Source of the DNA: a virus
DNA length: 31,591 nt
Strand: one strand, 5' to 3'
IMG/VR virus record: IMGVR_UViG_3300032087_001284
Location: 1-31,591 of that record
The notes under the pieces were generated by a model. The model saw nothing but the letters and a program-made list of their open reading frames with translations, made no database searches and was not told the origin of the DNA. The position numbers and the translations under genes are program-made. Shown in pieces: positions 1 through 29,807 of this stretch (positions within the stretch are counted from its first letter, which is position 1; every line of letters starts with the position of its first letter).

Positions 1-91
1 CCAAAAAACAATGTAACGGAAAAGAAACGTTACAAGCCTGTTACTGTAACGGCCCAAGATACAGATACAGATACAGATACAGATACAGAAA
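1..91. repeat. Terminal direct repeat, left copy (identical to 31501..31591); genome-closure overlap
   Basis: Read directly: bases 1-91 equal bases 31501-31591. The ORF starting at 31168 continues in frame through the repeat into 92..375. This fits a circular or terminally redundant genome of 31,500 unique bp. The sequence alone cannot tell a true DTR from an assembly overlap. Confidence 0.95.
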
Positions 92-375
92 AGAAAAAGA
101 TAAAAGAAATCTATCAGCGCGTGGCCGCGCTTGGGGTAGACAGACAATTATGGAATGAATTTTTGAAAACTAGAGTTAAACTGAAGGCGAACAATACGGC
201 TCGCGCATTGGCTACTTTAGCCAGTCGAGCTGAAGAGTACGCCCAAAACGGGGAAGATGTTAAAACATTATTTGAGGAGGCAAATAGCAATGGATGGAAA
301 ACAATATACGAGCGGAAGAATCGTCAACAACGCCGTCACAGCGCAACGAAGATCGCAACCAGCACAGATTGGTGA
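1..375 (+). CDS. Replication initiator (lambda O-like), C-terminal part of the wrap-around gene
   Basis: Frame 1 is open from base 1 to TGA 373-375. ORF-track entry 121..375 is the tail of this frame. It encodes a (DT)5 linker, a K-rich stretch, then LWNEFLKTRVKLKANNTARALATLASRAEEYAQNGEDVKTLFEEANSNGWKTIY. Confidence 0.6.
   Translation, partial: PKNNVTEKKRYKPVTVTAQDTDTDTDTDTEKKKIKEIYQRVAALGVDRQLWNEFLKTRVKLKANNTARALATLASRAEEYAQNGEDVKTLFEEANSNGWKTIYERKNRQQRRHSATKIATSTDW
12..110. promoter_or_regulatory. Putative replication origin inside the initiator gene (second copy 31512..31591 plus junction)
   Basis: TGTAACGG at 12-19 and 45-52, its complement CGTTACA at 28-34, and GTTAC at 40-44. Then (GATACA)x5 at 58-87 and the A-rich tract GAAAAGAAAAAGATAAAAGAAAT at 88-110. 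Repeats followed by an AT-rich tract inside the initiator gene mirror lambda ori within gene O. Confidence 0.4.
58..87 (+). repeat. Hexanucleotide tandem repeat (GATACA)x5, encoding (DT)5; duplicated at 31558..31587
   Basis: Five perfect head-to-tail GATACA units, read directly. Confidence 0.95.
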
Positions 376-781
376 GGATTTAGACAAGAGCTATATCAAT
401 CAACTTTTTGGAGTGATGCGGTTAAATTACCCGTCATTTTTAAATGACACCTCCGACGAGGATATAGCTTCGACCAAGAAGTTGTGGTGGTCATACCTAA
501 AGCATTACGATCAGGCATTAGTTCACAAAGCCACTTTAAAGGTTGTCGAGAAGTTCAAGAAGTTCGCGCCGACCTTGGGTGAGTTTAAGGAAATGCTCGA
601 AGATATAAAGCTAGAGCCAGCGCACAGGCCAAGCAGAGACACTACGGTTTGTCAGGTCTGCCGATCTTTTACTTTTACGCAGTATCATCAAGACATTTGT
701 ATAACCGGCGTTAAGTCGATTTACGAGGTAACAGACGAGCAAATTGCGGAAGCTAAAAAAATGTTTGCGGGGCTTAGATGA
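257..781 (+). CDS. Lambda P-like replication protein (helicase loader candidate)
   Basis: YINQLFGVMRLNYPSFLNDTSDEDIASTKKLWWSYL...KKFAPTLGEFKEML aligns by eye with lambda P INGVFSQLLATFPASL...RRQWVLAF...RPFLPSPGQFVAW. The start is uncertain. ATG 257 or ATG 290 overlaps the initiator 3' end. ATG 416 is the first ATG after its stop but would remove the conserved INQLF segment. ATGA overlap with the next gene at 778-781. Confidence 0.6.
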   Translation: MLKHYLRRQIAMDGKQYTSGRIVNNAVTAQRRSQPAQIGEDLDKSYINQLFGVMRLNYPSFLNDTSDEDIASTKKLWWSYLKHYDQALVHKATLKVVEKFKKFAPTLGEFKEMLEDIKLEPAHRPSRDTTVCQVCRSFTFTQYHQDICITGVKSIYEVTDEQIAEAKKMFAGLR

Positions 782-1308
782 GAAAGAAGCCTATTGATCT
801 CACTAGAGAGCGCCTGAGAGCATTAGCATCACAAGCAAACGTTGGACCATTACTAGCGTCAGAAATTCATCTGGTGCTAAGAGATAGCTCTGGCAAAAAC
901 AGCCTTTTTAAATTGCTGCAAGATACTGAGCTGGAATACCCGATCGATGTTCTTATCAAAAGAGCAACCAAAGATCGCACATCTGCACAAAATAACACCC
1001 AGCATCAATGGTACAAAGACGCAGAAGCGCAAGGAGACCAAAAGGCGTGGGAATACAGAGCCTACTGTAAGCTGCACTTTGGTGTGCCTATTATGCGGCG
1101 AGACAGTTTAGCGTACAGACAAAAGTACGATAAAATTTTAAAAAAACTGTCGTATGAAGATAAGTTGATAATGATGGCAGAGCCTCAGGCTTATCCAGTT
1201 ACCTCAGCGATGAACGTCGCACAAAAGAGCGCATTTTTAGAAGAAGTTAGAAATCACTTCGAAGAGCTTGGTTTTTTGCTGACAGATCCAAAAGACTGGG
1301 ACAAATAG
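778..1308 (+). CDS. ninB: NinB/Orf-like recombination mediator (candidate)
   Basis: RTSAQNNTQHQWYKD and PVTSAMNVAQKSAFLEEVRNHFEELGF resemble lambda NinB RSLDQNRKLWACL and STSRMRVGEFAELLELIQAFG. It lies immediately upstream of NinG, as in lambdoid nin regions. Confidence 0.55.
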   Translation: MRKKPIDLTRERLRALASQANVGPLLASEIHLVLRDSSGKNSLFKLLQDTELEYPIDVLIKRATKDRTSAQNNTQHQWYKDAEAQGDQKAWEYRAYCKLHFGVPIMRRDSLAYRQKYDKILKKLSYEDKLIMMAEPQAYPVTSAMNVAQKSAFLEEVRNHFEELGFLLTDPKDWDK

Positions 1309-1854
1309 ATGCCAAAAAGATGCAAGATCTGCAAAGAGCCATTTGTGCCAACTTTCAGCACCTTCCAAAAGACTTGCAACAACGTCGAGTGCTTAGTTGA
1401 CTTTGGTAGGGCAGAGGCACAGAGGCTAAACAAACGAGAGATTAGGCAAGCAAAGAAAAAAGCGAGGGAAAAAGACCGAGGCTATTGGATTAAGAGAGTA
1501 CAAACCGAGTTTAACAAGCACATACGTCAGAGGGATCACAAAGACCCTTGTATAAGCTGCCAGAGGCATCATCAAGGACAATATCATGCTGGCCACTATA
1601 TGAGCGTGGGCGGTCATTCTGCAATTTTAAGATTTGACGAGCAAAACACGCACAAACAATGCAGCGTCTGCAACAATCACAAAAGTGGCAATTTGGCAGA
1701 ATATCGGCCAAACTTAATCAAGAAGATAGGTTTGGAGGCAGTGGAGAGGCTAGAGGGGCCGCAAGATCCAAAGAAATACACAATCGACGAGCTGAAAGAT
1801 TTGCTGTCGGTTTATCAGGCGAAAAACAAAGAATGGGCCAAGTGTCAATCTTAG
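1309..1854 (+). CDS. ninG: NinG/Rap-family recombination endonuclease
   Basis: CKICKEPF...YWIKRVQTEFNKHIRQRD...PCISC...GQYHAGHY...LRFDEQNTHKQCSVCNNHKSGNLAEYRPNLIKKIGLEAVE closely tracks lambda NinG (CKICKEWF...SYWIKQAQQAVNAFIRERD...PCISC...WDAGHY...[23 protein letters not shown]). Confidence 0.85.
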   Translation: MPKRCKICKEPFVPTFSTFQKTCNNVECLVDFGRAEAQRLNKREIRQAKKKAREKDRGYWIKRVQTEFNKHIRQRDHKDPCISCQRHHQGQYHAGHYMSVGGHSAILRFDEQNTHKQCSVCNNHKSGNLAEYRPNLIKKIGLEAVERLEGPQDPKKYTIDELKDLLSVYQAKNKEWAKCQS

Positions 1855-2084
1855 ATCGAAACGCTGAAGAGGTACGCGAAACCTTGCGCGATCTTTTAGA
1901 AGCGTGTGAAGCTGGAGATGTAAGCGGAGCAATTATCGTGATCGAGCGTCAAGATGGGTTCGATTTGCAAATGCCTGGCACCTTTTCCACAGACCCAGAT
2001 AGCCTTGCGAGCATTATTGGACGCTTGCAAGTAGCGTCAAATGTTTTTGCCCATATGGTTTGGTCAGAAGAAGATGACGAGTAA
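1833..2084 (+). CDS. Hypothetical protein (83 aa)
   Basis: ATG 1833 is in frame within ORF-track 1659..2084, whose upstream part overlaps NinG. It has the coding look of an acidic small protein. Its end overlaps the next gene start by 11 nt. Confidence 0.5.
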   Translation: MGQVSILDRNAEEVRETLRDLLEACEAGDVSGAIIVIERQDGFDLQMPGTFSTDPDSLASIIGRLQVASNVFAHMVWSEEDDE

Positions 2085-3249
2085 AAGTGTCCCTGAGCAT
2101 TTAGAATATTGCAACACCGATTATCAGACACAGGTAATCGAAATGCACATCAGCGGGATGTCTCAAGCCGAGATTGCTAATCAACTGGGCAAAGAGCCTA
2201 GACGCATTTGTGAGGTTATCGGTAAGGTACACAAGAGAGCAAGTCGCAAGGGATTTGCACCCGATTACAATCTCAACAGACAGGTAGCGCCAGGATTTAC
2301 AACCAAGCGGGTCTCAACTGCTTACAACATGGACAACGAGATTGTCCTGCAATGGCACATTCAAGAGCCTGACCGAGAAAAACTAGAAGAACTGATAGCC
2401 GAATTCGTCGAAGGATTTAAAGATGAAGTCACCGGAATCCACGCTCCCACAGACGCGCCTACAGGCACTGATAACGATCTTATGGTTAGCTACATTATTG
2501 GGGATCATCACCTTGGGATGCTTGCTCACCACAGCGAGACGATGGGCGACGACTACGACGTTAAAATTAGCCAAACGCTTTTAGAAAATGCGATAGACCG
2601 ACTGGTAAGCTCTGCGCCAGCGGGAGAGGTTGGGGTGCTGGTTAATCTTGGCGATTTTATGCACATTAACGACAGCACAAGCTCAACGCCTAGCTCTAAA
2701 AACCTGCTGGATTCGGACGGCAGATACTCAAAGACCATTCGCGCAGCCAGCAACGTGATAAAGCGTACCGTTTTACGTATGCTTGAGAAGCATAATCACG
2801 TGTGGATCGTGAACGTAAGGGGAAATCATGACCCTGACGCTGCGCTTTGGTTAAATGAGGTTATGCGCCTGTACTTTGAGGAAGACCCAAGGGTCAAGGT
2901 ATTTGATAACGCTTCCAAGTTTGTTTGGTGGCAATGGGGCAAGAATCTAGTTGTGACCCATCATGGAGATCGGATTAAAATGTCTAATCTTCACGGATCA
3001 ATCGTTAGTAACTTGAGGAAAGAATGGGGCGAATCCGATCACACCTACGTGTGGACAGGTCACATCCACCACAAGAATCAGGAGGAATATGGGGGAGCAT
3101 TGTTCGAGTCTTGGAACATCCTAGCACCCGCAGACGCTTGGCACGCTGGCTCTGGCTATGCCAGTTCTCGGAGTATGACTTGCGTAATCCTCCACAAATC
3201 GTTCGGAGAGCAAGGAAGATTAAAGGCAAACATTCAGGAGTTAGTATGA
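2074..3249 (+). CDS. HTH domain fused to a calcineurin-like metallophosphoesterase (Mre11/SbcD-like motif set)
   Basis: The N-terminal ISGMSQAEIANQLGKEPRRICEVIGKVHKRA is HTH-like. The C-terminal half has ordered phosphoesterase motifs IGDHHLG, NLGDFMH, RGNHDP, THHGD and TGHIHH. ATG 2074 was chosen over 2041 because it removes most of the overlap with the upstream ORF. Confidence 0.65.
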   Translation: MTSKSVPEHLEYCNTDYQTQVIEMHISGMSQAEIANQLGKEPRRICEVIGKVHKRASRKGFAPDYNLNRQVAPGFTTKRVSTAYNMDNEIVLQWHIQEPDREKLEELIAEFVEGFKDEVTGIHAPTDAPTGTDNDLMVSYIIGDHHLGMLAHHSETMGDDYDVKISQTLLENAIDRLVSSAPAGEVGVLVNLGDFMHINDSTSSTPSSKNLLDSDGRYSKTIRAASNVIKRTVLRMLEKHNHVWIVNVRGNHDPDAALWLNEVMRLYFEEDPRVKVFDNASKFVWWQWGKNLVVTHHGDRIKMSNLHGSIVSNLRKEWGESDHTYVWTGHIHHKNQEEYGGALFESWNILAPADAWHAGSGYASSRSMTCVILHKSFGEQGRLKANIQELV

Positions 3250-3470
3250 GCGCAATGGACCGGCAAGTTTCTGGTAGCCATTACAAAACCATGATGATTC
3301 AACCTTTGGAATACGCGCTTGCTAACGACCTAGGTATCTGTGAACACGCGGTGGTAAAGTACATTTCTAGGTGGCGGGATAAAGGCGGGGTAGAGGATCT
3401 CAGAAAAGCAGCACATTACATCGAGATCCTCATAGAAAGAGAAACAGCCTTGGACGATAACGTCAGTTAG
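3246..3470 (+). CDS. DUF3310-family phage protein
   Basis: SGSHYKTMMIQPLEYALANDLGICEHAVVKYISRWRDKGGVEDLRKAAHYIEILI matches the remembered DUF3310 pattern (HY...iE.i.....f..gn..KY..R...K....DL.KA.hY). ATGA overlap with the upstream gene at 3246-3249. Confidence 0.7.
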   Translation: MSAMDRQVSGSHYKTMMIQPLEYALANDLGICEHAVVKYISRWRDKGGVEDLRKAAHYIEILIERETALDDNVS

Positions 3471-3598: not shown

Positions 3599-3928
3599 TT
3601 AGTAGGTTTCATTTTCCTCTCCTAATGTTTCACGTGAAACGTTGTGGTAACTATCTCTGCGGCTGCGAGTTTGAAAGAAACCATCATGCTCGGGGTAGCA
3701 GATCATAAACTTTCTGGCGTAATGACTAATCCAACCGTCATCGATCTTGTAAGAGTCATCTTTGCCTGAGACCATCGTTTCCCATCTGACCCGATGAAAA
3801 ACAGCCTTGGCCGAATAGTAGCGTTTGTGGCGGGTAGCAATTAATGCGAAGTGCGCGAAAGTCGTAAAGATGTCTGGATTTTCACGGTCAAATTGCTCGA
3901 AATTCTCTTTGCTCCATTTCCCGTTCAT
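3599..3928 (-). CDS. Conserved-looking phage protein of unknown function, last gene of the methyltransferase operon
   Basis: ATG at 3928 forms an ATGA overlap with the MTase stop (3925-3927). The ORF track extends it to 3946. Sequence: WSKENFEQFDRENPDIFTTFAHFAL...VFHRVRWE...ISHYARKF. Confidence 0.6.
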   Translation of the reverse strand: MNGKWSKENFEQFDRENPDIFTTFAHFALIATRHKRYYSAKAVFHRVRWETMVSGKDDSYKIDDGWISHYARKFMICYPEHDGFFQTRSRRDSYHNVSRETLGEENETY

Positions 3929-4800
3929 CGGTTTTCTATCTCCCAAATTGCTTTTCCGATTTGCTCAACTACTTGAGGCACTACCGCATTGCCTAATTGT
4001 TTAAGTCTGTGTGACCTTCTGGGAACCCCATTAGCCACTCTACCCACGTTGGGTTCAGGCTTCCACCAGCTTGAGCTGCCAATGTCGGTGTATTGCGATT
4101 GTGTTCTGAAGGAGCGGCTGTCTCTTTGGCATTGTGAGCCGTTGGTGTAGGCCACATTTTCACTTGATCCTGCAACCGTATCTGTATCTTCTGACCACTT
4201 GCTCTTGTTGTCTTGCCTTCTAGTAATGCTTTCGGAGTCCCGCTTTGGCTCGCATTTGGAGTTCTCCACCATCCGCTGTTCATGCTTGGAGCCATTTGAT
4301 TCGCTGTCGCTGTTGGCGTGTGCAATAATCCAGACTCGATCCCTTCTGTGGTGAGCATCGACGGCACAAGCTGGAATAACAAACGGCCTTGTGGTGTAGC
4401 CCGCTGCTTCCAAGTCAATGAGCACTTCGTCGAGGCCCATATTGATGTGCCCAGCAACATTTTCTCCAATGACCCAATCGGGCCTGAGTTCTTGGATAAG
4501 CCTAAACATTTCAGGCCAGAGGTGACGGTCATCTTCTGCGCCACGCCGTTCTCCTGCAACGCTGAAGGGTTGGCAAGGGTATCCTCCGCAAATAAGTCCG
4601 ATGTCATGTATTCCATTATCTAGGAGCTCCTGTTTGTTTAGCGTTCTAACGTCAGAAAAAATAGGCACTTCAGGCCAATTTTTTTTTAACACTTTCTGCG
4701 CTTCTTTGTCGTATTCACAGAAAGCGGCTGTTTCAAATCCAGCAGCCTCCAGGCCTAAACTGAATCCACCAATACCAGAAAATAAGTCTAGCACCCTCAT
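3925..4800 (-). CDS. DNA (cytosine-5)-methyltransferase
   Basis: Motif I DLFSGIGGFS, IV GGYPCQPFS, VI IGENV, VIII HHRRDRVWI, X LGNAVVPQ. The segment between VIII and X is hydrophilic and low-complexity. See the finding on the nested +1 ORF. Confidence 0.85.
   Translation of the reverse strand: MRVLDLFSGIGGFSLGLEAAGFETAAFCEYDKEAQKVLKKNWPEVPIFSDVRTLNKQELLDNGIHDIGLICGGYPCQPFSVAGERRGAEDDRHLWPEMFRLIQELRPDWVIGENVAGHINMGLDEVLIDLEAAGYTTRPFVIPACAVDAHHRRDRVWIIAHANSDSESNGSKHEQRMVENSKCEPKRDSESITRRQDNKSKWSEDTDTVAGSSENVAYTNGSQCQRDSRSFRTQSQYTDIGSSSWWKPEPNVGRVANGVPRRSHRLKQLGNAVVPQVVEQIGKAIWEIENR
3993..4616 (-). CDS. Nested +1-frame ORF inside the methyltransferase gene (TRD / motif-IX-like translation)
   Basis: 207 codons open on the same strand, entirely within 3925..4800. 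The translation contains KMTVTSGLKC, CSLTWKQRATPQGRLLFQLVPS, GLLHTPTA, MWPTPTA and LNPTWVEWLMGFPEGHT. I recall these strings from long phage C5-MTases. Whether and how it is expressed is unknown. Confidence 0.45.
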   Translation of the reverse strand: MEYMTSDLFAEDTLANPSALQENGVAQKMTVTSGLKCLGLSKNSGPIGSLEKMLLGTSIWASTKCSLTWKQRATPQGRLLFQLVPSMLTTEGIESGLLHTPTATANQMAPSMNSGWWRTPNASQSGTPKALLEGKTTRASGQKIQIRLQDQVKMWPTPTAHNAKETAAPSEHNRNTPTLAAQAGGSLNPTWVEWLMGFPEGHTDLNN

Positions 4801-5464: not shown

Positions 5465-5492
5465 ATTCTAATCATCTTGCAATGATTGTCAA
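5465..5492 (-). promoter_or_regulatory. Sigma-70-type promoter for the leftward MTase operon, with a palindromic operator in the spacer
   Basis: The minus strand reads TTGACA (5492-5487), a 16-nt spacer, then TAGAAT (5470-5465). The spacer holds the inverted repeat AATCAT-N6-ATGATT (5470-5487). Confidence 0.55.
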
Positions 5493-5500
5493 CAAAACTT

Positions 5501-5527
5501 TTGACATAAACATAACATTAATAAAAT
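5501..5527 (+). promoter_or_regulatory. Possible rightward promoter upstream of the late operon
   Basis: TTGACA 5501-5506 and TAAAAT 5522-5527, but the spacer is only 15 nt, so this is a weak call. Confidence 0.25.
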
Positions 5528-5564
5528 GGGATATACTTGCTTAGTTTCAAAGAGAAATTGACCG

Positions 5565-5960
5565 ATGATTGAAATAACTAGATTTGCTTTATTGCCAGAT
5601 CGAACTTTGGGGAAAGCCGTTTATGGAGAGCATGTTTTTTGGACTATCGAGAAACCTTGGAAAGATAACGAACCGTTTATATCTTGTATACCAGAGGGCT
5701 ACTATCGACTTGGCAGGAGAAATTCGCCAAGATTCGGCCCAAATGTCTGGGAAGTGCTTGAAGTGCCTAATCGTACTCATATACTCATCCACGTTGCTAA
5801 TACTGCTGATGATGTCGTGGGCTGTATTGGGTTTGGGTCAAGCGTATATGCGGATCTTGGCGGCGTGGGAAGCAGCCGTAAAGCGATGAATCAATTCGAG
5901 CTTGCGAGCCAAGAACTAGAAAATGAGGAGCTTATAATCAAGCACAGTTTTATAACTTAG
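5565..5960 (+). CDS. DUF5675-family protein
   Basis: TLGKAVYGEHVFWTIEKPWKDNEPFISCIPEGYYRL...VPNRTHILIHVANTADDVVGCIGFGS matches the remembered DUF5675 pattern (T.G.l......t.E.p...N....s.IP.G.Y ... iliH.gN...d..GCi..G). Confidence 0.5.
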   Translation: MIEITRFALLPDRTLGKAVYGEHVFWTIEKPWKDNEPFISCIPEGYYRLGRRNSPRFGPNVWEVLEVPNRTHILIHVANTADDVVGCIGFGSSVYADLGGVGSSRKAMNQFELASQELENEELIIKHSFIT

Positions 5961-5972
5961 AGAGGAGGGGGC

Positions 5973-6494
5973 ATGCAAACCTTAGAGGTCAAATATTTAT
6001 CAGTCGATGAGTTGCTGCCATACGACAAAAACTCACGCACACATAGTGATTCACAAATACTGCAAATTGAAAAAAGTATCAAAGAATTTGGGTTTACGAA
6101 TCCATTATTGATCACAGAAAATAATGAGATAATTGCAGGGCATGGTCGGTTATCAGCAGCTAAAAATCTAGGACTAGATGCAATACCAACTATAGTTCTA
6201 TCTAATCTCACTGAAACGCAACAGCGAGCTTATGTCATCGCTGACAATCAATTAGCGTTAAACTCAGGTTGGGATATATCCTTGTTAAGTGAAGAGCTGA
6301 CAATGCTTGATGAAGTAGGTCTTGATATTTCACTTTTAGGTTTTGACGATAATGAAATTGCAGAACTTATGGGAATTTCACCATATTTTGAGCCAGCAAC
6401 AGAAAAAGAACAAGGTAAGTTGGACGAGTTAGATCCTAAGTGGATCGATTGCCCTCATTGCGGCAAAGAATTTGATTTGCGAAAGCATGGGTAA
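5973..6494 (+). CDS. ParB-like nuclease-domain protein with a C-terminal CxxC tail
   Basis: Strong RBS GAGGAGGGGG. LLPYDKNSRTHSDSQILQIEKSIKEFGFTNPLLI...IIAGHGRLSAAKNLGLDAIP is a ParB/Srx-type domain. It is followed by ADNQLALNSGWD...LGFDDNEIAEL and then CPHCGKEF. Confidence 0.75.
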   Translation: MQTLEVKYLSVDELLPYDKNSRTHSDSQILQIEKSIKEFGFTNPLLITENNEIIAGHGRLSAAKNLGLDAIPTIVLSNLTETQQRAYVIADNQLALNSGWDISLLSEELTMLDEVGLDISLLGFDDNEIAELMGISPYFEPATEKEQGKLDELDPKWIDCPHCGKEFDLRKHG

Positions 6495-7131
6495 AGTCAA
6501 TCTGAAAATAGACTGGGCAAGCCATCAAGCAGCTAAATATGCGTGCGAGAATTGGCATTATAGTAAAAGCACGCCCGTGCCGCCTTTAGTAAAAATAGGC
6601 GTTTGGGAAGATAAAAAATTCGTGGGTGTATTGATATTCAGTCGAGGAGCAAGTAGCAATTTATTAAAGCCATACAATTTGAAACAAACGGAGGGTTGCG
6701 AACTCACAAGAATAGCTCTGTCAAGTCACAAAACAAACGTTTCAAGAATTGTGAAAGTCGCAATCGGATTTTTGAAGAAAAAGAGCCCTGCACTGCGGCT
6801 AATAGTTTCATTCGCTGATCCGCAATACGGGCATCACGGCGGCATTTATCAAGCTGGTAATTGGATCTATGCGGGCAAAACATCAAAAGGGAAAGAGTTT
6901 TGGTTGAATGGTAAGAGGCTGCATTCAAGACAAGTCTCAGAAAAAGGTTGGAATATACAACAAGGCATGAAAAGAAAAACCGCAAAACCGTCTGAATGTG
7001 AAATAATCGAAACTGAAGGAAAACATCGATACCTTATGCCGCTGGACAAAAAGATAAAAAAGCAAATAATGTGCTTATCACAACCGTACCCAAAGCGGGC
7101 AAAAGAAGCAGGCGCTGCAGTACCCCTGTAG
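6487..7131 (+). CDS. GNAT-like acyltransferase, Mom-like DNA-modification family candidate
   Basis: NWHYSKSTPVPPL..IGVWEDKKFVGVLIFSRG...CELTRIAL...LRLIVSFADPQYGHHGGIYQAGNWIYAGKT. I recall this motif pattern for the acyltransferase family annotated as Mom-type adenine methylcarbamoylation proteins. This is not verified. ATG 6487 overlaps the ParB-like gene end by 8 nt; the ORF-track start is 6472. Confidence 0.45.
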   Translation: MGKVNLKIDWASHQAAKYACENWHYSKSTPVPPLVKIGVWEDKKFVGVLIFSRGASSNLLKPYNLKQTEGCELTRIALSSHKTNVSRIVKVAIGFLKKKSPALRLIVSFADPQYGHHGGIYQAGNWIYAGKTSKGKEFWLNGKRLHSRQVSEKGWNIQQGMKRKTAKPSECEIIETEGKHRYLMPLDKKIKKQIMCLSQPYPKRAKEAGAAVPL

Positions 7132-7165
7132 CACTGGGCGGTGCGACTCCGACCTGTCCGCTCCA
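7095..7165 (+). other. tRNA-like three-way junction ending in CCA (weaker relative of the 28680..28753 element)
   Basis: Closing stem GCGGGCA (7095-7101) / TGTCCGC (7155-7161, one G-U pair), then T, then CCA. Internal hairpin GCTGCA/TGTAGC with loop GTACCCC. T-arm-like hairpin with loop TGCGACT. It fails canonical tRNA geometry. Confidence 0.2.
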
Positions 7166-7174
7166 ATTATTAAT

Positions 7175-7528
7175 ATGGCCAGACCTCTGAAAGAAATAGA
7201 TTGGCAACAAGTAAATCAAATGTGCGCTATTCACTGTACAGGTGAAGAGCAAGCAGCAGTTCTTGGCATCGATTACGATACCTTGAATTCAGCCTGTAAG
7301 CGTGAACATAAAATGAGTTTTTCGGACTATTTCAAGCAAAAGGCCAGCCACGGCAAAATGAGCCTGAGACGGAAGCAGTATACGACCGCGATGGACGGAA
7401 ATACGACTATGCTAGTATGGCTCGGAAAAAACTGGTTAGGACAGCGGGATCAGCCAGAATCGGAGCCTGTTGATCTACAGCCCATAGTTATACAGAGAGC
7501 CGATGAAGCTGACCAAACCCCAAGATGA
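7175..7528 (+). CDS. terS: Terminase small subunit
   Basis: HTH-like N-terminus (QMCAIHCTGEEQAAVLGIDYDTL), then SLRRKQYTTAMDGNTTMLVWLGKNWLGQRD, a typical TerS signature. It lies directly upstream of and overlaps TerL. Confidence 0.75.
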   Translation: MARPLKEIDWQQVNQMCAIHCTGEEQAAVLGIDYDTLNSACKREHKMSFSDYFKQKASHGKMSLRRKQYTTAMDGNTTMLVWLGKNWLGQRDQPESEPVDLQPIVIQRADEADQTPR

Positions 7529-8717
7529 CATCTTCTTCAATGACTCGCGGTTCAGGGTCGTTGTAGCGGGTCGTCGATTTGGTAAAACCTTCTTATCAAC
7601 CTATGAGCTGCTGAAGCACGCGCTGCAAGGCAAGTCTCAGAATTGTTGGTATGTTGCCCCTACGTATAAGGCAGCGAAAGAAATAGCGTGGAACATGCTT
7701 ATTGACGCTATACCTGACGGTTACATGACCAAGAAAAACGAGACAGCGTTGAGCATCGATTTGCGTAACGGCTCAAGCATAGCCCTCAAGGGCGCAGAAA
7801 AGCCCGACAATCTGCGAGGACGGGCGCTAGATTTTTGCGTATTGGATGAGTTTGCTGATATGCGTCCTGAAGCGTGGCATGAAGTGTTGCGGCCATCATT
7901 ATCTGACAGGCGCGGAAACGCGTTATTTATTGGCACACCTAAAGGCAGAAACCACTTCTACGACCTGTGGACGAGGGGCGTAGACGGCCAAGAATCATGG
8001 GAAGCCTTCCAATATACGACGATTGATGGCGGCAACGTTGACCCTGACGAGATAAGAGCAGCCAAAAACGACCTTGACGAAAGAACATTTCAGCAAGAAT
8101 ACGAGGCTCGATTCGTCAATTACAGCGGGATTATCTATTACGCATTTAGCCGCGAGCAATCAGTCAAACCGTATAATGCCTCAGTCGATGAGCTACATAT
8201 CGGTATGGATTTCAACGTCGACCCCATGTCGGCAGTTGTCTGCGTTAGGAATGGCGGCACGTTGCACGCCATAGACGAGATCGTAATGTATGGCTCAAAC
8301 ACCGATGAGATGGTGGACGAAATCAGGCAAAGGTATAGGCAGAACGCGATCACGATATATCCTGATCCCGCATCTGCCCAGCGGAAGACTTCAGCCGGTA
8401 GTCGGACCGACTTAAACATATTACAAAACGCAGGGTTTCGGGTTAAAGTACGCAGTAAGCATCCTGCAATACGTGATAGGATAAACAGTGTCAACAGCCG
8501 ACTGTTATCTAGTCAGCAACAACGGCGGTTATTTGTTACGCCAAACTGTAAAAACGTAATCAACAGCTTGGAGCGTCAAACGTACAAAGAAGGCACCAGC
8601 CAGCCAAATAAGGATGACGGGTTCGATCACATGAATGATGCACTCGGCTACTTAATCGAATATATGTTCCCCATTCGCAAGGAACATGAAACGCCACAGC
8701 CTACGAGGTGGACTTAA
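7503..8717 (+). CDS. terL: Terminase large subunit
   Basis: Walker A VVAGRRFGKT, Walker B-like FCVLDEFADM, a C-terminal nuclease-like region (IGMDFN...DHMNDALGY), and its position between TerS and the portal gene. Confidence 0.85.
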   Translation: MKLTKPQDDIFFNDSRFRVVVAGRRFGKTFLSTYELLKHALQGKSQNCWYVAPTYKAAKEIAWNMLIDAIPDGYMTKKNETALSIDLRNGSSIALKGAEKPDNLRGRALDFCVLDEFADMRPEAWHEVLRPSLSDRRGNALFIGTPKGRNHFYDLWTRGVDGQESWEAFQYTTIDGGNVDPDEIRAAKNDLDERTFQQEYEARFVNYSGIIYYAFSREQSVKPYNASVDELHIGMDFNVDPMSAVVCVRNGGTLHAIDEIVMYGSNTDEMVDEIRQRYRQNAITIYPDPASAQRKTSAGSRTDLNILQNAGFRVKVRSKHPAIRDRINSVNSRLLSSQQQRRLFVTPNCKNVINSLERQTYKEGTSQPNKDDGFDHMNDALGYLIEYMFPIRKEHETPQPTRWT

Positions 8718-18329: not shown

Positions 18330-18714
18330 GTCATTCCTTCTTCAAAAAGCCCTAAATGAATGGGGCCGCAATAATTTTGAGTACGGATCTGTGGATTGCT
18401 GCCAGTTCACGGCTTTTATTGTTTACAAAATCACCGGCAAAAATTATGCAGACGGGCTAGAATACGAAAGTGAGCTAGGTGCGGACGCTTTGATCGCAAA
18501 GTATGGGGATTTAGTTGGAGTGCTAACGCGTGCTATCGGAGAGCCGCCAAATCAGGCAGAATCAGATGGAGACCCTTGCGTTGTAGATGTCGATGGTATC
18601 GGTCAAGTCGCAGGGATAAAATACGGCGAAACGGTGATCTGTTTATTGCAAAAAGGTTTTATTCGTTTGCCAGATAATTTAATCATTGCAGGTTGGCACT
18701 TATGGCACAAATAA
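18274..18714 (+). CDS. Tail-associated NlpC/P60-like peptidase candidate (GTA g14 / lambda K position)
   Basis: About 146 aa with GSVDCCQFTAFIVYKITG, which may contain a catalytic Cys. The position matches the small cell-wall peptidase of GTA-like tail modules. The start is uncertain (GTG 18274 overlaps the upstream gene by 56 nt). Confidence 0.4.
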   Translation: MESRLLKKTKTNSIKSPSRSFLLQKALNEWGRNNFEYGSVDCCQFTAFIVYKITGKNYADGLEYESELGADALIAKYGDLVGVLTRAIGEPPNQAESDGDPCVVDVDGIGQVAGIKYGETVICLLQKGFIRLPDNLIIAGWHLWHK

Positions 18715-21700
18715 TCCCATTTCTTAAAGCAGTAGGCGCATTTGTAACCGCAGGGGCCGCAGCGGGGACGACTGCTGCTGTAATCGGGGCCACTGTTGTT
18801 ATCGGCGCAACTGTTGCCGCGTCTCGCGCCCTAAAGCCCAAAATAAATTTCAGCATTGACGACAACGATCGAACGCGACAGCAAACGGTGCGTTCCACGA
18901 TTGAGCCTCGTAAGTTAGTTTACGGTGAGACAATGGTCAGTGGGCCGCTAACGTATGCAAAGGTTACGGGCACAAATAACGAAGACCTGCACCAAGTCGT
19001 TGCTTTAGCTGGGCATGAATTAACAGCTATTAAAACAGTTTTTTTTGACGACAAATCTATAGATTTAACTCAGGCTCTGACTTATAACAGCTCGACTAAG
19101 GAGGTCATCAGCGGTTTTTTTGGCCCTAAAAATGATGAAGACGGCAACAGCGAAAACATCGTTTACATAGACACAAGGTTAGGAACCTCTAGCCAAACAG
19201 CTTTCTCAGCACTACGGTCTAATTCTGAAACCAGCAGCGAATATCTAGCAACGCATAGAGGAGACAACGTAGCTTCTATTTATACTCGCTGGCGCATAAA
19301 CGAAGGATCAGCAGAGGTATGGGACGAGGTTGGTAATGTCCAAAATATCAAGTGCGTGGTTCAAGGCAAAAAGGTCTATGACCCACGGTTAGATGTACAT
19401 GCTGGCAATGATGCAGGAGATAACCCTACGACTGCGGCCTATATCGTTTATAACGACGGAACGCTAACGACAGGATCAGCACAGGGGAATTACAACCGAG
19501 GCAATCAGGGCGAGAACCCAGCCTTGCAGCTTGCTGATTTCTTGATGAACTCTGATTTTGGTTTAGGTATACCAGCGAGCAAGATTGACTGGCCTGCGGT
19601 AGTAACAGCGTCTGATCTTTGTGACCAGTTGGTCCCTATTCCAAGCAGTGCTGTACAGAAAAGATTCTTTGGTTCTGGCGTGATTTTTGGGGCCGACACC
19701 TATAGCGCGTCTATCTCTAAGATCCTTTCAGCAATGAATGGCAGCCTGATTTATAGCCAAGGCAAGTACATCATGGCGGCTGGCAAGTATGTTAGCCCTA
19801 GCGAAACTTTAACAGAAGACGATTTGGTTGGTCCTGTTCAAATTAAAACCGCAATCCCAAGATCAGATCGAGTCAACACTATCAAGGGTCTATTCATAGA
19901 TCCCAATGAAAACTACAAGATGATGGAGTTCGGCCCTGTAACTGTTGGGGCCAATGACTTTAACAATCAGACCAAAGGCGCGGTTGCAAGAGACAACGGC
20001 GAAGTGTTGACTGAAGAAGTCAAATTACCGTTTACCGATAACCGATATGCGGCACAACGAATTGCGCTGATGCAAGTTGCGCAGTCTTATCATCAAACTA
20101 TTGTCACTGTTCCCGTAAATCTAAAAGCAATGCGTATTGCGATTAATGATCGCGTCAACCTTACCCTTAGCGATTTTAACGCGGTTGATAGTGGTAACTG
20201 GGCACCCAAGGTTTTCAAATGTATTGGATGGCGGTTTGCCGAAGATGGTCAAGGAATTAACCTCACATTAATTGAGGACGACAGCAATAACTATAACGAC
20301 CCAGCGGCAGGTGATTATTCGACTATTACTGCCGAAGGTGTTATCAGCACAGCCTTGCCAAACGTTCCAAGTCCATCACAATTGACGCTGACTTCTGCAA
20401 TTAACAGCATCGAGCTGAATTGGAAAAACCCGCCTAACACAAGTGCATGGGAACAGATTTACATTTACCGCAACACTACCGGAACATTGCCAACCGACAG
20501 TGATACACCTATCGCCAGGCTAAGAGCAAGCAGCTATATAGATCAGAGAGCAGCCGCAGGATCAGACGGCGTTGCTATTGAATACTACTATTGGATTCAA
20601 GCGGTCAGATATCCGCAAGGGTCAACGCCAGCAAGTGGAAACACAAACAAAGCCAAGTCACCAATGGTTGCGGCTGGCACACCTGCAAGCGGGAAGATAG
20701 CAGCGACTAAGATTGGCTTTGGAGTCATGGGCGCGGATAGTGTTGGCTCAACGCAGGTTATAGACGGCAACATTGGATCAGACCAGATTGCAACAACCTT
20801 ACAGTCTACTAATTACGACGCACAACAAGAAACGGGTTGGCAAATCAACAAGTCTGGAACTGCGTTTTTCCAAGAAGCCACCATCAAAGGCGGCATTACA
20901 GCCAACAGCGGTACGATTGGTGGGCTAACAATTGGGTCAGATAAATTATACGTTGGAACTGGCACGTTCAATAATTCGAATACCGCTTTCTACGTGGATG
21001 ATCAAGGTCAACTAAGCCTCAAAGATAAGCTCTCTTGGGACGGTACTGATCTAACAATTTCTGGATCGGTCACAGCAACCTCTGGAACATTCACCGGCAC
21101 TGTAAACGCATCCGCTGGAGCATTTACTGGCGACGTTTCAACTGATTCAAAGTTTATCGCTGGATCTGGCGATGCAACAACAGTCATTGATGGAGGAGCT
21201 TCTGCAACATATAGGATATTTAGCGGAGCTGCGCAAGCGGAAAGTGAAAATGCGCCATTCCAAGTTAAGCCTGATGGTTCTGTTTTTGCCAAAAATATTA
21301 CAGTCTTTGATGCCTCTGGAAACATCCTACTTAATCAAGACGGGCTAGGCGCTGCTGCGCTGGCTGGGATATCGCTTACTTCAGGAACGGCAGTCGATAA
21401 GGTAAGTGGTGTTTTGTCAGGCGATGGCGGCGAAATGACGCTGACGCTAGATCAAACTGCAACGGTAACGCTTGAAACCAAGTTTGCTATATACGACAAC
21501 TCAGTCGGCACGTTGTATCTACGAGGAACTGGCGCAACATCATCCGCAGCGTTGTCAGACATTACGAACGCAACCCTGAATATTGTCTATAGTCTACAAA
21601 CTGATGGTGGCTCATATAGCACCGCAGCAACCAAGCCGATCACTTTTACTAGCACTGATTCGACCCCAAGCTCCACTGAGGTTTACGTAACGGCTATCCA

Positions 21701-29222: not shown

Positions 29223-29807
29223 TTACTCTCCTATTTTGTGTTTTAGTTTTTCGACCTTCTCAAGTAATACTTGAAGATTGTCGTCTAAGCCCTTTATATA
29301 TTTATCGTTTCTGTGAACGGTAACAATAAAAGGCGGCATGGCTGGGTGGTACGACATAAAATCCCAACTGTCGGTTTCACACAACCAAATGCACCCTTGC
29401 ACTTGGGGGTAATAATTGCTCGGGCATTTACCCCCGTCAAAATACTTCAGGTGATTTTTAGGTGCTGGGCATTTGACCTCGAGGCGCATCCGATCAGGCG
29501 AGCAGCCTATCGTTTGCTCATCGTTAGTCACGAACCCAATCACTTCGGTTTCGGTATCTTTAATCAGCTCGTAAGCCATAACAGCCTCAGCCTCCATTTC
29601 GATACCACGAGTCATCCAATCAGTAACAAATACTTCTGCTTTTTGTCCAGAAATTACTTCTGCCGCCAGCTCTAGCGCATAATCGTCAAGGCTACTGCTA
29701 ACTTTGCAAGTGCTAGTAAACACTTTGCCAAAATTAGATGCTGTGGGAACACCAAGGCGCAATAAATGCCACGCCTCTGTGCCTTGTTCTACATCATGCA
29801 AGATCAT
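29223..29807 (-). CDS. YqaJ-like viral recombinase exonuclease
   Basis: The N-terminal QGTEAWHLLRLGVPTASNFGKV is the YqaJ/lambda-Exo-like signature. Adjacent to ERF. Confidence 0.8.
   Translation of the reverse strand: MILHDVEQGTEAWHLLRLGVPTASNFGKVFTSTCKVSSSLDDYALELAAEVISGQKAEVFVTDWMTRGIEMEAEAVMAYELIKDTETEVIGFVTNDEQTIGCSPDRMRLEVKCPAPKNHLKYFDGGKCPSNYYPQVQGCIWLCETDSWDFMSYHPAMPPFIVTVHRNDKYIKGLDDNLQVLLEKVEKLKHKIGE

What the first reader, a model, noticed from the sequence alone, without database searches (positions are those of the whole stretch)
5973..7131. ParB-like nuclease-domain protein coupled to a Mom-like acyltransferase: a candidate DNA hypermodification module where a methylase domain is normally fused
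The 173-aa protein has a ParB/Srx-type domain plus the linker (ADNQLALNSGWD...LGFDDNEIAEL) that, as I recall, normally precedes a fused N6/N4 DNA methyltransferase domain in phage ParB-methylase proteins. Here that domain is absent. The protein ends in a CPHCGKEF tail.

Overlapping it by 8 nt is a separate 214-aa protein with NWHYS, CELTRIAL and VSFADPQYGHHGGIYQAGNWIYAGKT motifs. I associate these motifs with the GNAT-like family annotated as Mom-type adenine methylcarbamoylation enzymes.

If that is correct, the DNA-targeting ParB module has exchanged an N6-methylating partner for an N6-acylating one. The pair sits with DUF5675 at the head of the late operon, just before terS, where it could modify DNA ahead of packaging. 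Together with the C5-MTase operon, this phage would invest heavily in DNA modification and anti-restriction.
Basis: partly seen in the sequence, partly recalled or inferred. Interest (0 to 1): 0.65.

Follow-up and report, generated by a model that had tools for sequence, protein, structure and literature searches.

The report
ParB-like partner plus Mom DNA-modification cassette
Two overlapping phage genes just before the DNA-packaging genes encode a relative of the phage Mu Mom enzyme, which chemically decorates adenine in DNA, and a small ParB-like helper. The same pair occurs in hundreds of other phages and prophages, so it is a real but common cassette whose helper role has never been tested.

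Summary
ORF 5973-6494 (173 aa) has a ParB/Srx N-terminal domain, a helical linker and a CPxCG tail. ORF 6487-7131 (214 aa) overlaps it by 8 nt and is a full-length Mom-family protein: Pfam PF25680 at E 1.3e-45, best structural match the Mu Mom crystal 8BV8 at TM 0.71-0.75, and six active-site residues conserved.

The pair is not unusual:
- All 77 IMG/VR contigs carrying a 56-79% identical Mom and any upstream DNA have the ParB gene abutting it.
- 24 of 33 genome loci have it too, from Proteobacteria to Planctomycetota and a Methanobacterium.
- RefSeq already annotates it in Enterococcus phiEf11, Microbacterium and Arthrobacter phages.

The same ParB subfamily (48-58% identical) also occurs fused to N6/N4 methylases and next to C5 methylases, a TET-associated glycosyltransferase and an unknown protein, usually before the terminase.

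Mu Mom is now known to transfer glycine from Gly-tRNA(Gly) to N6-adenine. ParB-like proteins lacking a DNA-binding domain were recently shown to be required activators of phage thymine dioxygenases.

Most likely this is a ParB-assisted momylation cassette. ParB dependence is inferred, not shown, and some relatives lack ParB. Verdict: new member of a known kind, moderate interest.

The parts
5961..5968 (+). Shine-Dalgarno sequence (GAGGAGGG) of the ParB-like gene
   Evidence: Read directly from the sequence. It ends 4 nt before the ATG at 5973.
5973..6494 (+). ParB-like gene, 173 aa. It has a ParB/Srx nucleotide-binding-type domain (aa 1-95), a helical linker (aa 100-153) and a C-terminal CPxCG beta-hairpin. 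It has no HTH DNA-binding domain.
   Evidence: PF02195 34.1 bits and phrog_620 E 2.4e-59. AF2 model pLDDT 75.5. Foldseek top hits are CTP-bound ParB/Noc/KorB N-domains at E about 1e-7. The profile matches Noc/ParB chains over aa 4-85.
6030..6149 (+). Nucleotide-pocket motifs of the ParB domain. N20-S21-R22 aligns with the ParB 'QPR' box. G56-H57-G58-R59 aligns with the 'GERR' box.
   Evidence: Alignment to Noc 7nfu. These residues are invariant among 25 homologues. The Gln-to-Asn and Glu-to-His substitutions are the same ones reported for dioxygenase-associated phage ParBs (bioRxiv 10.1101/2025.08.14.668559).
6441..6476 (+). C-terminal CPxCG knuckle (C160-P-H-C163-G-K-E-F), a half zinc-ribbon beta-hairpin
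   Evidence: Sequence. Strands 157-159 and 166-168 in the AF2 model. Weak DUF7575 zinc-ribbon hit. Conserved in phiEf11, Appa, BarretLemon and Salinibacter phage ParBs and in 84 of 84 Mom-linked ParBs. Also present in ParBs paired with C5 methylases, but not in the methylase-fused forms.
6487..6494 (+). 8-nt overlap ATGGGTAA (Mom start and ParB stop), suggesting translational coupling
   Evidence: Sequence. Overlaps or gaps of a few nt recur in most related loci.
6487..7131 (+). Mom-family GNAT gene, 214 aa. Predicted aminoacyl-tRNA-dependent N6-adenine DNA-modifying enzyme.
   Evidence: PF25680 156 bits, full length. AF2 pLDDT 83.8. Foldseek best hit 8BV8 Mu Mom, TM 0.71-0.75, E 6e-11, with the next GNATs at TM of 0.50 or lower. 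H24, Y25, R75, S86, D111 and Y121 align with Mu H58, Y59, R111, S124, D149 and Y159.
7175..8717 (+). Context: terS-like gene (7175-7528) and terminase large subunit (7503-8717) immediately downstream. This is the ParB - effector - terminase arrangement.
   Evidence: Weak phrog_606/309 hits for terS. terL is 54% identical to pelagiphage terminases. The same order appears in L007, L008 and L154 and in genome loci.

Best explanation
The two genes form a late-expressed, translationally coupled DNA-hypermodification cassette.

The 214-aa protein is a true Mom-family GNAT. By analogy with Mu Mom, it takes an aminoacyl group, most likely glycine from host Gly-tRNA(Gly), and transfers it to N6 of flipped-out adenines in double-stranded phage DNA. 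The group then rearranges to N6-carbamoylmethyl-adenine, which blocks host restriction enzymes.

The 173-aa ParB-like protein is not a partition protein. It is a DNA-binding-domain-less, nucleotide-binding-type ParB module that serves as a dedicated partner of the enzyme. It most plausibly dimerises, with the CPxCG tail possibly forming a shared zinc site, and activates, positions or keeps Mom on replicated DNA shortly before or during packaging.

The same ParB module is a swappable adaptor. In other phages it is fused to N6/N4 methylases or paired with C5 methylases, a TET-associated glycosyltransferase and thymine dioxygenases.

Shown here: family membership of both proteins, the fold, active-site conservation, gene coupling, co-occurrence, co-variation and partner swapping.

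Inferred: the donor and product chemistry, ParB-Mom physical interaction, NTP use, zinc binding and the link to packaging.
For: Mom identity:
- PF25680 matches full length at E 1.3e-45.
- The profile hits only the Mu Mom chain 8BV8 in the PDB, at E 2.3e-11.
- The AF2 model superposes on 8BV8 at TM 0.71-0.75, against 0.50 or lower for other GNATs.
- Six Mu residues shown by mutagenesis to matter are conserved across the family: H58, Y59, R111, S124, D149 and Y159 (PMC7261163, PMC13219725).

ParB identity:
- PF02195 matches, and the model resembles the N-domains of ParB, Noc and KorB.
- There is no HTH domain.
- The Asn and His substitutions match the ParBs that activate phage dioxygenases.

Functional linkage:
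- The genes overlap by 8 nt.
- A ParB gene abuts Mom in 77 of 77 viral contigs and in 24 of 33 genome loci across many phyla, including an archaeon.
- RefSeq annotates the pair in phiEf11, Appa and BarretLemon.
- The pair is also present in a Salinibacter phage, where both genes are annotated only as hypothetical proteins.
- ParB and Mom distances correlate at r = 0.71, with 0 of 999 Mantel permutations reaching that value.
- Every identified partner gene of this ParB subfamily but one, an ABC/AAA-type ATPase, is a DNA-modifying enzyme or domain. Another nine loci carry a roughly 200-aa neighbour of unknown function.

Precedents:
- A ParB-like regulator is required for the activity of phage 5mYOX thymine dioxygenases (bioRxiv 10.1101/2025.08.14.668559).
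- 'ParB-terminase large subunit loci' have been predicted to modify DNA during packaging (PMC4738411).
- ParB and Mom homologues have been noted as neighbours in Dehalococcoides islands (PMC3146451).

A tRNA-Gly gene sits next to the pair in Microbacterium phage Appa. This fits a glycyl-tRNA donor.
Against: - Mu Mom works alone in vitro, and the 2026 paper calls it 'a single viral enzyme'. Two randomly chosen metagenomic homologues were active in E. coli, and no partner is mentioned for them (PMC13219725).
- Nine genome loci of the same Mom clade, mostly Pseudonocardiaceae prophages, have no ParB. Mom sits there between an HNH endonuclease and the terminase. ParB is therefore dispensable in at least some lineages.
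- Three Mu residues important for activity are not conserved: W48 (dimer interface) aligns with Q14, R151 with Q113, and W181 with R144. Identity to Mu Mom is only 24%. The donor, target sequence or even the product could differ.
- The ParB GERR box is degenerate (GHGR). NTP binding is plausible but unproven.
- No close natural ParB-Mom fusion exists. The only candidate is one weak, divergent protein, P0351.
- No multimer model could be run.
Confidence: 0.55

Rival explanations
1. The two genes are neighbours but functionally independent. Mom modifies DNA on its own, as in Mu. The ParB-like protein serves packaging or another late function, such as terminase or pac-site assistance, nicking or regulation. 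Both simply occupy the accessory-gene slot upstream of the terminase.
For: - Mu Mom is self-sufficient in vitro (PMC13219725).
- The same ParB subfamily lies before terS/terL whatever the neighbouring gene is.
- Mom occupies the pre-terminase slot without ParB in Pseudonocardiaceae prophages.
- Broader Mom-family members in Proteus, Bacillus, Enterococcus LoneStar and Mu phages have no ParB.
Against: - Every identified neighbour or fusion partner of this ParB subfamily but one (an ABC/AAA-type ATPase, in one locus) is a DNA-modifying enzyme. None is a packaging protein. A roughly 200-aa neighbour in nine loci is unidentified.
- Covalent fusion to N6/N4 methylases argues for a role in modification.
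- The 8-nt overlap, 77 of 77 co-occurrence and correlated divergence go beyond what mere co-location predicts.
- There is experimental ParB dependence in the analogous dioxygenase system.
Confidence: 0.25
2. The cassette does modify DNA, but the chemistry differs from Mu momylation. It could use a different aminoacyl-tRNA or an acyl-CoA donor, target a different sequence context or base, and produce something other than N6-carbamoylmethyl-adenine.
For: - Identity to Mu Mom is only 24%.
- Mu-essential R151 and important W48 and W181 are replaced.
- The clade has its own invariant motif, ADPQYGHHGG.
- The authors of the Mom structure state that co-substrate and substrate cannot be predicted from structure or alignment (PMC13219725).
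Against: - The residues surrounding the modelled adenine and CCA end (H58, Y59, R111, S124, D149, Y159) are invariant across all Mom clades examined.
- The R151 position varies across the whole family, so it is a Mu-lineage feature.
- A tRNA-Gly gene lies beside the pair in Appa-type phages.
Confidence: 0.15
3. The ParB-like protein is mainly a safety device or timer rather than a DNA-loading factor. It would restrain or gate a Mom enzyme that is toxic to the host, playing the role that Dam/OxyR/C/Com control plays in Mu.
For: - Mu keeps mom under multilayer control, and Com is a small zinc-finger protein whose gene overlaps mom.
- Here a CPxC-tailed protein is encoded by the overlapping upstream gene.
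- The dioxygenase preprint also raises timing control as a possible ParB role.
Against: - There is no sequence relationship to Com beyond a generic CPxC knuckle.
- Translational coupling produces both proteins together, which is a poor design for a timer.
- Fusion of the same module to methylases suggests a constitutive mechanistic role.
Confidence: 0.05

Closest known systems
Phage Mu Mom (Pfam PF25680; PDB 8BV8), the Gly-tRNA(Gly)-dependent N6-adenine carbamoylmethyl-transferase
   Same: Full-length family match, the same GNAT fold with the Mom-specific C-terminal region, and conserved H58/Y59/R111/S124/D149/Y159 equivalents. It is also a late-gene anti-restriction context.
   Different: - Only 24% identical.
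- Lacks Mu's 35-residue N-terminal extension.
- W48, R151 and W181 are not conserved.
- Preceded by an overlapping ParB-like gene instead of the Com zinc-finger translational activator.
- Located before the terminase rather than at the genome end.
Annotated ParB-like / Mom-like (acetyltransferase) gene pairs in Enterococcus phage phiEf11 (gp62/63), Microbacterium phage Appa (gp46/47) and Arthrobacter phage BarretLemon (gp69-71)
   Same: Same two families, same order, with overlapping or abutting genes and the same CPxCG tail on ParB. Mom is 49-56% identical.
   Different: - ParB is only 28-35% identical.
- Those pairs lie in early/replication or end-of-genome regions rather than directly before terS.
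- BarretLemon has a small extra ORF between the genes.
- None has been studied functionally.
ParB-dependent phage 5-methylpyrimidine (thymine) dioxygenases (O'Toole et al., bioRxiv 10.1101/2025.08.14.668559)
   Same: A short phage ParB-like protein lies next to a DNA base-modifying enzyme, often near terminase genes. It has the nucleotide-binding-type domain, no HTH DNA-binding domain, Asn in place of the catalytic Gln and His/Asp in place of the GERR Glu.
   Different: The effector is an Fe/2OG dioxygenase acting on thymine, not a GNAT acting on adenine. ParB dependence is demonstrated there and only inferred here. A CPxCG tail is not described there.
ParB-N6/N4 DNA methyltransferase fusions and 'ParB-terminase large subunit loci' (phrog_498, PADLOC PDLC03229; Iyer, Zhang & Aravind, PMC4738411)
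   Same: The ParB domain plus the ADNQLALN...LLGFDD linker is 48-58% identical to the N-terminal part of such fusions. The locus position before the terminase is the same.
   Different: There is no methylase domain. The protein ends in a CPxCG knuckle, and the catalytic partner is a separate Mom-family polypeptide.
DpdB of the Dpd 7-deazaguanine DNA-modification system (from my own knowledge, not tested here)
   Same: A ParB-like NTPase that is needed by a separate DNA base-modifying enzyme (DpdA).
   Different: Different effector and chemistry, and a bacterial defence-island context. No sequence comparison was made here.

Membership tests
Mom family (Pfam PF25680; prototype phage Mu Mom) | Full-length match to the family profile above the curated cut-off | tested here: met
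   156 bits against a cut-off of 27.1, covering residues 6-203 and profile positions 2-202 of 202. phrog_1384 E 2e-57.
Mom family (Pfam PF25680; prototype phage Mu Mom) | GNAT fold closest to the Mu Mom crystal structure, including the region after the GNAT core | tested here: met
   AF2 pLDDT 83.8. Foldseek rank 1-2 is 8BV8, TM 0.71-0.75, E 6e-11, with other GNATs at TM of 0.50 or lower. The insertion region is aligned, but the model shows it as beta-hairpins, so its HTH-like shape is not confirmed.
Mom family (Pfam PF25680; prototype phage Mu Mom) | Active-site residues shown by mutagenesis in Mu: H58, Y59, R111, S124, D149, Y159 | tested here: met
   They align with H24, Y25, R75, S86, D111 and Y121 and are invariant in an 11-sequence cross-clade alignment.
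Mom family (Pfam PF25680; prototype phage Mu Mom) | Mu residues R151 (essential), W48 (dimer interface) and W181 | tested here: not met
   They align with Q113, Q14 and R144. The R151 column varies throughout the family, so this looks like a Mu-lineage feature rather than a family-defining one.
Mom family (Pfam PF25680; prototype phage Mu Mom) | Gly-tRNA(Gly)-dependent modification of N6-adenine in dsDNA, giving N6-carbamoylmethyl-dA | not testable with these tools
   Biochemistry is required. The only circumstantial support is a tRNA-Gly gene next to the pair in phage Appa.
Canonical partition ParB (ParABS CTPase clamp) | ParB/Srx N-terminal nucleotide-binding domain | tested here: met
   PF02195 34.1 bits against 26.3. 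Foldseek hits to CDP/CTP-bound ParB, Noc and KorB.
Canonical partition ParB (ParABS CTPase clamp) | Intact GERRxRA and QPR CTP-binding and hydrolysis motifs | tested here: inconclusive
   GERR is G56-H57-G58-R59 and QPR is N20-S21-R22. One phosphate-binding Arg of each motif is kept. The catalytic Gln and Glu are replaced.
Canonical partition ParB (ParABS CTPase clamp) | Central HTH parS-binding domain and C-terminal dimerisation domain, and scoring as a ParB/Spo0J family member | tested here: not met
   Only helices 102-153 and a CPxCG hairpin follow the N-domain. TIGR00180 scores 40.2 bits against a cut-off of 58.45. There is no ParA gene in the window.
ParB-assisted phage DNA-modification cassettes (ParB-terminase loci; ParB-dependent 5mYOX) | HTH-less ParB-like gene directly adjacent or fused to a DNA base-modifying enzyme gene | tested here: met
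   8-nt overlap with Mom. The same ParB subfamily occurs with N6/N4 MTase (fused), C5 MTase, TAGT and Mom.
ParB-assisted phage DNA-modification cassettes (ParB-terminase loci; ParB-dependent 5mYOX) | Location next to the terminase genes | tested here: met
   terS-like gene at 7175 and terL at 7503 follow directly. The same holds in L007, L008, L154 and several genome loci.
ParB-assisted phage DNA-modification cassettes (ParB-terminase loci; ParB-dependent 5mYOX) | Effector activity depends on the ParB partner | not testable with these tools
   Needs co-expression and deletion experiments. Nine ParB-less loci in the same Mom clade argue against an absolute requirement.
ParB-DNA methyltransferase fusion proteins (phrog_498, PDLC03229) | C-terminal N6/N4 methyltransferase domain | tested here: not met
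   The protein ends at residue 173 after the linker and CPxCG tail. Only the N-terminal 150 residues match.
Mu com-mom regulatory pair | Upstream overlapping gene encodes a Com-type Cys4 zinc-finger translational activator | tested here: not met
   The upstream gene is ParB-like with a single CxxC. Com has two CxxC pairs and no ParB domain.

The most novel reading that the evidence does not exclude
The ParB-like protein is an obligatory nucleotide-gated clamp or activator that loads a tRNA-dependent DNA aminoacyl-transferase onto phage DNA. Its invariant C-terminal CPxCG knuckle would form an inter-subunit, Rad50-hook-like zinc site that replaces the canonical ParB dimerisation domain.

On this reading, one ParB chassis is a universal, swappable loader for at least five chemically unrelated DNA-modifying enzymes (Mom, N6/N4 and C5 methylases, glycosyltransferase, dioxygenase) positioned at the packaging operon. 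Momylation in most phages would then be a two-component process, not the 'single enzyme' process described for Mu.
Probability: 0.3. Interest if true: 0.65.

Novelty: new member of a known kind. Interest (0 to 1): 0.4.

Why it matters
Mom-type adenine hypermodification has only just been explained biochemically, as a glycyl-tRNA-dependent and single-enzyme process, and only for Mu. In this survey the abundant environmental Mom clade is almost always encoded together with a ParB-like protein, and the Mom literature I could read does not mention that protein.

A 2025 preprint showed that similar ParB-like proteins switch on phage thymine dioxygenases. If ParB also controls or loads Mom, ParB-assisted base modification becomes a general principle of phage anti-restriction. 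It would also matter to anyone trying to reconstitute or exploit these enzymes.

For this particular window the finding adds one more member to a large, already annotated set of cassettes.

Tried and rejected
- Nucleotide search of 5500-7600 against 50,697 phage records found no match, so the phage itself is not in the collection.
- DUF5675 as part of the module was rejected. It is absent from all 80 related viral loci.
- A phage-encoded tRNA-Gly as a regular third component was rejected as a general feature. There is none in the window or in 58 other loci. It is confirmed only in Appa. In Salinibacter B2_17 it is annotated but not confirmed by ARAGORN or Rfam.
- A clade-specific metal site from C20/C71/C171 and H116/H117 in Mom was rejected. 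The cysteines are not conserved in the actinophage or L148-type ParB-linked Moms.
- A search for natural ParB-Mom fusions with a concatenated query found none among the top hits. An exhaustive profile search gave one 404-aa protein (P0351) whose N-terminus resembles phiEf11 ParB only weakly (BLASTP E 5e-6, no Pfam hit). It may be a gene-calling artefact.
- Homology of the ParB tail to Mu Com amounts to a generic CPxC knuckle only.
- The promoter and terminator scan around the cassette gave nothing above shuffled expectation on the + strand.
- Iyer et al. 2013 (NAR gkt573) and 2009 (Cell Cycle) may already describe ParB-Mom linkage. They are not held in the library, so prior description could not be checked directly.
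- A multimer structure prediction was not possible with the tools available.
Full report
**What is there**

The first ORF, 5973-6494, encodes 173 aa and follows a strong ribosome-binding site. The second starts at ATG 6487, inside the last codons of the first. The sequence there is ATGGGTAA, an 8-nt overlap, and the ORF ends at 7131 (214 aa). DUF5675 lies upstream at 5565-5960. A weak terS-like gene, terL and a DUF4055 portal follow downstream.

The window carries an exact 91-bp terminal direct repeat, so it is probably a complete genome of about 31.5 kb. Its terminase is closest to pelagiphage podoviruses at 54% identity. No near-identical phage is in the reference collection.

**The 214-aa protein is a Mom-family enzyme**

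- It matches Pfam 'Mom' PF25680 end to end (E 1.3e-45) and PHROG 1384.
- A profile of 25 homologues hits a single PDB sequence, the Mu Mom crystal 8BV8 (E 2.3e-11).
- The AlphaFold2 model (pLDDT 83.8) superposes best on 8BV8 at TM 0.71-0.75, E 6e-11. Ordinary GNATs stay at TM 0.50 or lower.
- Mutagenesis in Mu identified H58, Y59, R111, S124, D149 and Y159 as important (PMC7261163; PMC13219725). These align with H24, Y25, R75, S86, D111 and Y121. They are invariant in a cross-clade alignment.
- Three other Mu residues (W48, R151, W181) are not conserved, and the protein lacks Mu's N-terminal 35 residues. The R151 column varies throughout the family, so these look like Mu-lineage features.

Mu Mom transfers glycine from Gly-tRNA(Gly) to N6 of adenine in dsDNA, and the glycyl group then rearranges to carbamoylmethyl (PMC13219725).

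**The 173-aa protein is a ParB/Srx-type protein, not a partition ParB**

- It passes the PF02195 threshold but falls below NCBI's ParB/Spo0J and Noc cut-offs.
- The model (pLDDT 75.5) and Foldseek place residues 1-95 on the CTP-binding N-domains of ParB, Noc and KorB.
- After the N-domain come helices 102-153 and a C-terminal beta-hairpin carrying C160-P-H-C163-G. There is no HTH domain.
- The QPR and GERR boxes are N20-S21-R22 and G56-H57-G58-R59. The Gln-to-Asn and Glu-to-His replacements are those reported for the phage ParB-like proteins that activate thymine dioxygenases (bioRxiv 10.1101/2025.08.14.668559).
- The domain plus linker matches the N-terminus of ParB-methyltransferase fusions: phrog_498 at E 1.5e-47 and PADLOC MTase_II at E 7e-38.

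**The pair is a conserved cassette**

| Data set | Loci with ParB abutting Mom |
|---|---|
| IMG/VR contigs with Mom 56-79% identical and any upstream DNA | 77 of 77 |
| Genome loci (one genome per species) with upstream DNA | 24 of 33 |

- The genome loci span Paraburkholderia, Tolumonas, Oceanicaulis, a cyanobacterium, Saccharibacteria, Planctomycetota, Calditrichota and a Methanobacterium chromosome. All 24 carry the CPxCG tail.
- RefSeq already annotates the pair in Enterococcus phiEf11, Microbacterium Appa and Arthrobacter BarretLemon. A Salinibacter phage has it too.
- Across 84 distinct pairs, ParB and Mom distances correlate at r = 0.71, with 0 of 999 Mantel permutations reaching that value. 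Every ParB has the CxxC tail.
- The nine genome loci without ParB are mostly Pseudonocardiaceae prophages. There Mom sits between an HNH endonuclease and the terminase.
- More distant Mom-family members have no ParB: Mu with Com, Proteus, Bacillus and Enterococcus LoneStar phages.
- The family comprises 2,874 representatives at the 50%-identity level with E up to 0.001. Of these, 400 reach E 1e-30 against this clade's profile.

**The ParB module is swappable**

The 80 closest viral relatives of the window's ParB are 47-69% identical. Their neighbours break down as follows:

| Partner of the ParB-like gene | Loci |
|---|---|
| Mom adjacent (three of these are a divergent, Mu-like Mom) | 41 |
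| Mom about 2 kb downstream | 1 |
| Fused into ORFs of about 400 aa; 15 carry a [DNS]PP[YFW] motif, and two were confirmed as PF01555 | 17 |
| Separate protein of about 360-400 aa; all three tested are C5 methylases (PF00145) | 7 |
| Protein of about 200 aa with no Pfam or PHROG match | 9 |
| TET-associated glycosyltransferase, followed by terS | 1 |
| ABC-type ATPase | 1 |
| Undetermined | 3 |

The N-domain plus linker is 48-58% identical across all these contexts. That is more than the 28-35% identity to the Mom-linked ParBs of Gram-positive phages. The CPxCG tail occurs only in the stand-alone forms.

**Comparison with what is known**

- Iyer, Zhang and Aravind describe 'ParB-terminase large subunit loci' whose methylases are predicted to modify DNA during packaging (PMC4738411).
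- McMurdie et al. list adjacent ParB and Mom homologues in Dehalococcoides islands (PMC3146451).
- O'Toole et al. show experimentally that a class of phage thymine dioxygenases is inactive without its ParB-like neighbour.
- The 2026 Mom paper never mentions ParB.
- I could not read Iyer et al. 2013, which may already note a ParB-Mom link.

No paper in the searchable library discusses 'Mom-like' together with 'ParB-like'.

**Mechanism, with its status**

- Shown here: both family memberships, the fold, active-site conservation, gene coupling, co-occurrence, co-variation and partner swapping.
- Inferred: Mom uses Gly-tRNA(Gly) to make N6-carbamoylmethyl-adenine on phage DNA. ParB binds a nucleotide and dimerises, possibly through a shared zinc site made from two CPxCG knuckles. 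ParB activates or positions Mom on DNA around the time of packaging.
- Against an absolute requirement: Mu Mom is self-sufficient, and ParB-less members of the same clade exist.

I put 0.55 on the partner-cassette explanation, 0.25 on independent neighbours, 0.15 on different chemistry and 0.05 on a pure safety or timer role.

**Verdict**

However, the cassette is common and already annotated, and both of its component ideas have precedents. It is a new member of a known kind. The testable point of interest is whether momylation outside Mu is ParB-assisted.

**Side observations**

The most notable is the C5 methylase gene on the minus strand, which appears to encode its small domain in an internal overlapping frame. 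Three unrelated phage lineages share this arrangement. Details are in the separate list of things noticed in passing.

Noticed in passing
window 3925-4800 (- strand), internal ORF 3993-4616 (- strand): The C5 cytosine methylase gene appears to be nested.
- The 291-aa outer ORF carries motifs I-VIII (PF00145, profile positions 2-215) and a C-terminal LGNAVVPQV motif X.
- An internal ORF in another frame encodes a typical target-recognition/motif IX segment (WPTPTA...LNPTWVEWLMGFPEGHT).
- That internal segment is 40-44% identical over its full length to cytosine-methylase genes of unrelated phages.
- Paenibacillus phage Diva annotates the same layout as 'g49 internal gene'.
- In phage C72C1 the match is out of frame with the annotated methylase CDS.

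Either the small domain is made as a separate polypeptide from an overlapping frame, or two frameshifts are needed. The return junction contains CTTAAAC just before the internal stop.
   Followed up: partly
window 1-91 and 31501-31591: There is an exact 91-bp direct repeat at the two ends of the window, so the contig is probably a complete circular or terminally redundant phage genome of about 31.5 kb. terL is closest (54% aa) to Pelagibacter podophages HTVC111P/202P, although the GC content of 46% does not fit a Pelagibacter host.
   Followed up: partly
L008 5799-6005; L091 2141-2344; L116 3339-3545; also L021, L090, L092-L094, L119, L121, L123, L218: In 12 related loci a conserved ORF of 65-70 aa is inserted between the ParB-like and Mom genes. 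Its consensus is MS..EQKN.NIL.RFE....GTK..KY.F.L.GK..TMINM.N..L.EA..SL..RWG. It is absent from the window and could be an optional third component of the cassette.
   Followed up: partly
L002 4154-4228 (Microbacterium phage Appa); L212 3106-3178 (Salinibacter phage B2_17, annotation only): A tRNA-Gly gene lies immediately after the ParB-Mom pair in Appa, confirmed by ARAGORN and Rfam. One is annotated in the Salinibacter phage but not confirmed by either tool. Dehalococcoides islands are reported to have a tRNA-like element inside their mom homologue (PMC3146451). This is suggestive because Mu Mom uses Gly-tRNA(Gly). No tRNA is present in the window or in 58 other loci.
   Followed up: yes
L130 3496-4104, L132 3529-4107 and seven similar loci (L131, L133, L134, L136, L137, L140, L141): In nine viral contigs a protein of about 192-202 aa with no Pfam or PHROG match follows a closely related stand-alone ParB that ends in a CxCPxC tail. 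Every other identified partner of this ParB subfamily but one (an ABC/AAA-type ATPase) is a DNA-modifying enzyme, so this is a candidate for an undescribed one.
   Followed up: partly
L229 (Methanobacterium ferruginis chromosome NZ_AP027738.1, 1910317-1916949): A ParB-CPxCG plus Mom pair (Mom 46% identical to the window's) lies in the chromosome of a methanogenic archaeon. The cassette therefore crosses the bacteria-archaea boundary, presumably in a provirus.
   Followed up: no
P0310, P0263, P0374, P0389 (C-terminal) and P0295 (N-terminal): Several Mom-clade representatives are fused to a region of about 100 aa that gives weak, sub-threshold hits to Pfam YunG (PF24585). One 404-aa protein (P0351) has an N-terminal segment weakly similar to the phiEf11 ParB. 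These could be real fusions or gene-calling read-through.
   Followed up: partly
window 5465-5492 (- strand): A near-consensus sigma-70-type promoter (TTGACA, 16 nt spacer, TAGAAT; 11 of 12 matches) faces leftwards from the divergent intergenic region, towards the small minus-strand genes and the C5 methylase. No comparable rightward promoter was found for the DUF5675-ParB-Mom-terminase operon.
   Followed up: no
window 257-3470 and 29223-30385: The rest of the genome encodes a lambdoid-style early set: a G39P-like helicase loader/inhibitor, NinG, a metallophosphatase-like 402-aa protein, DUF3310, ERF and a YqaJ exonuclease. There is also a single 2,295-aa ORF at 18693-25580 in the tail region.
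   Followed up: no
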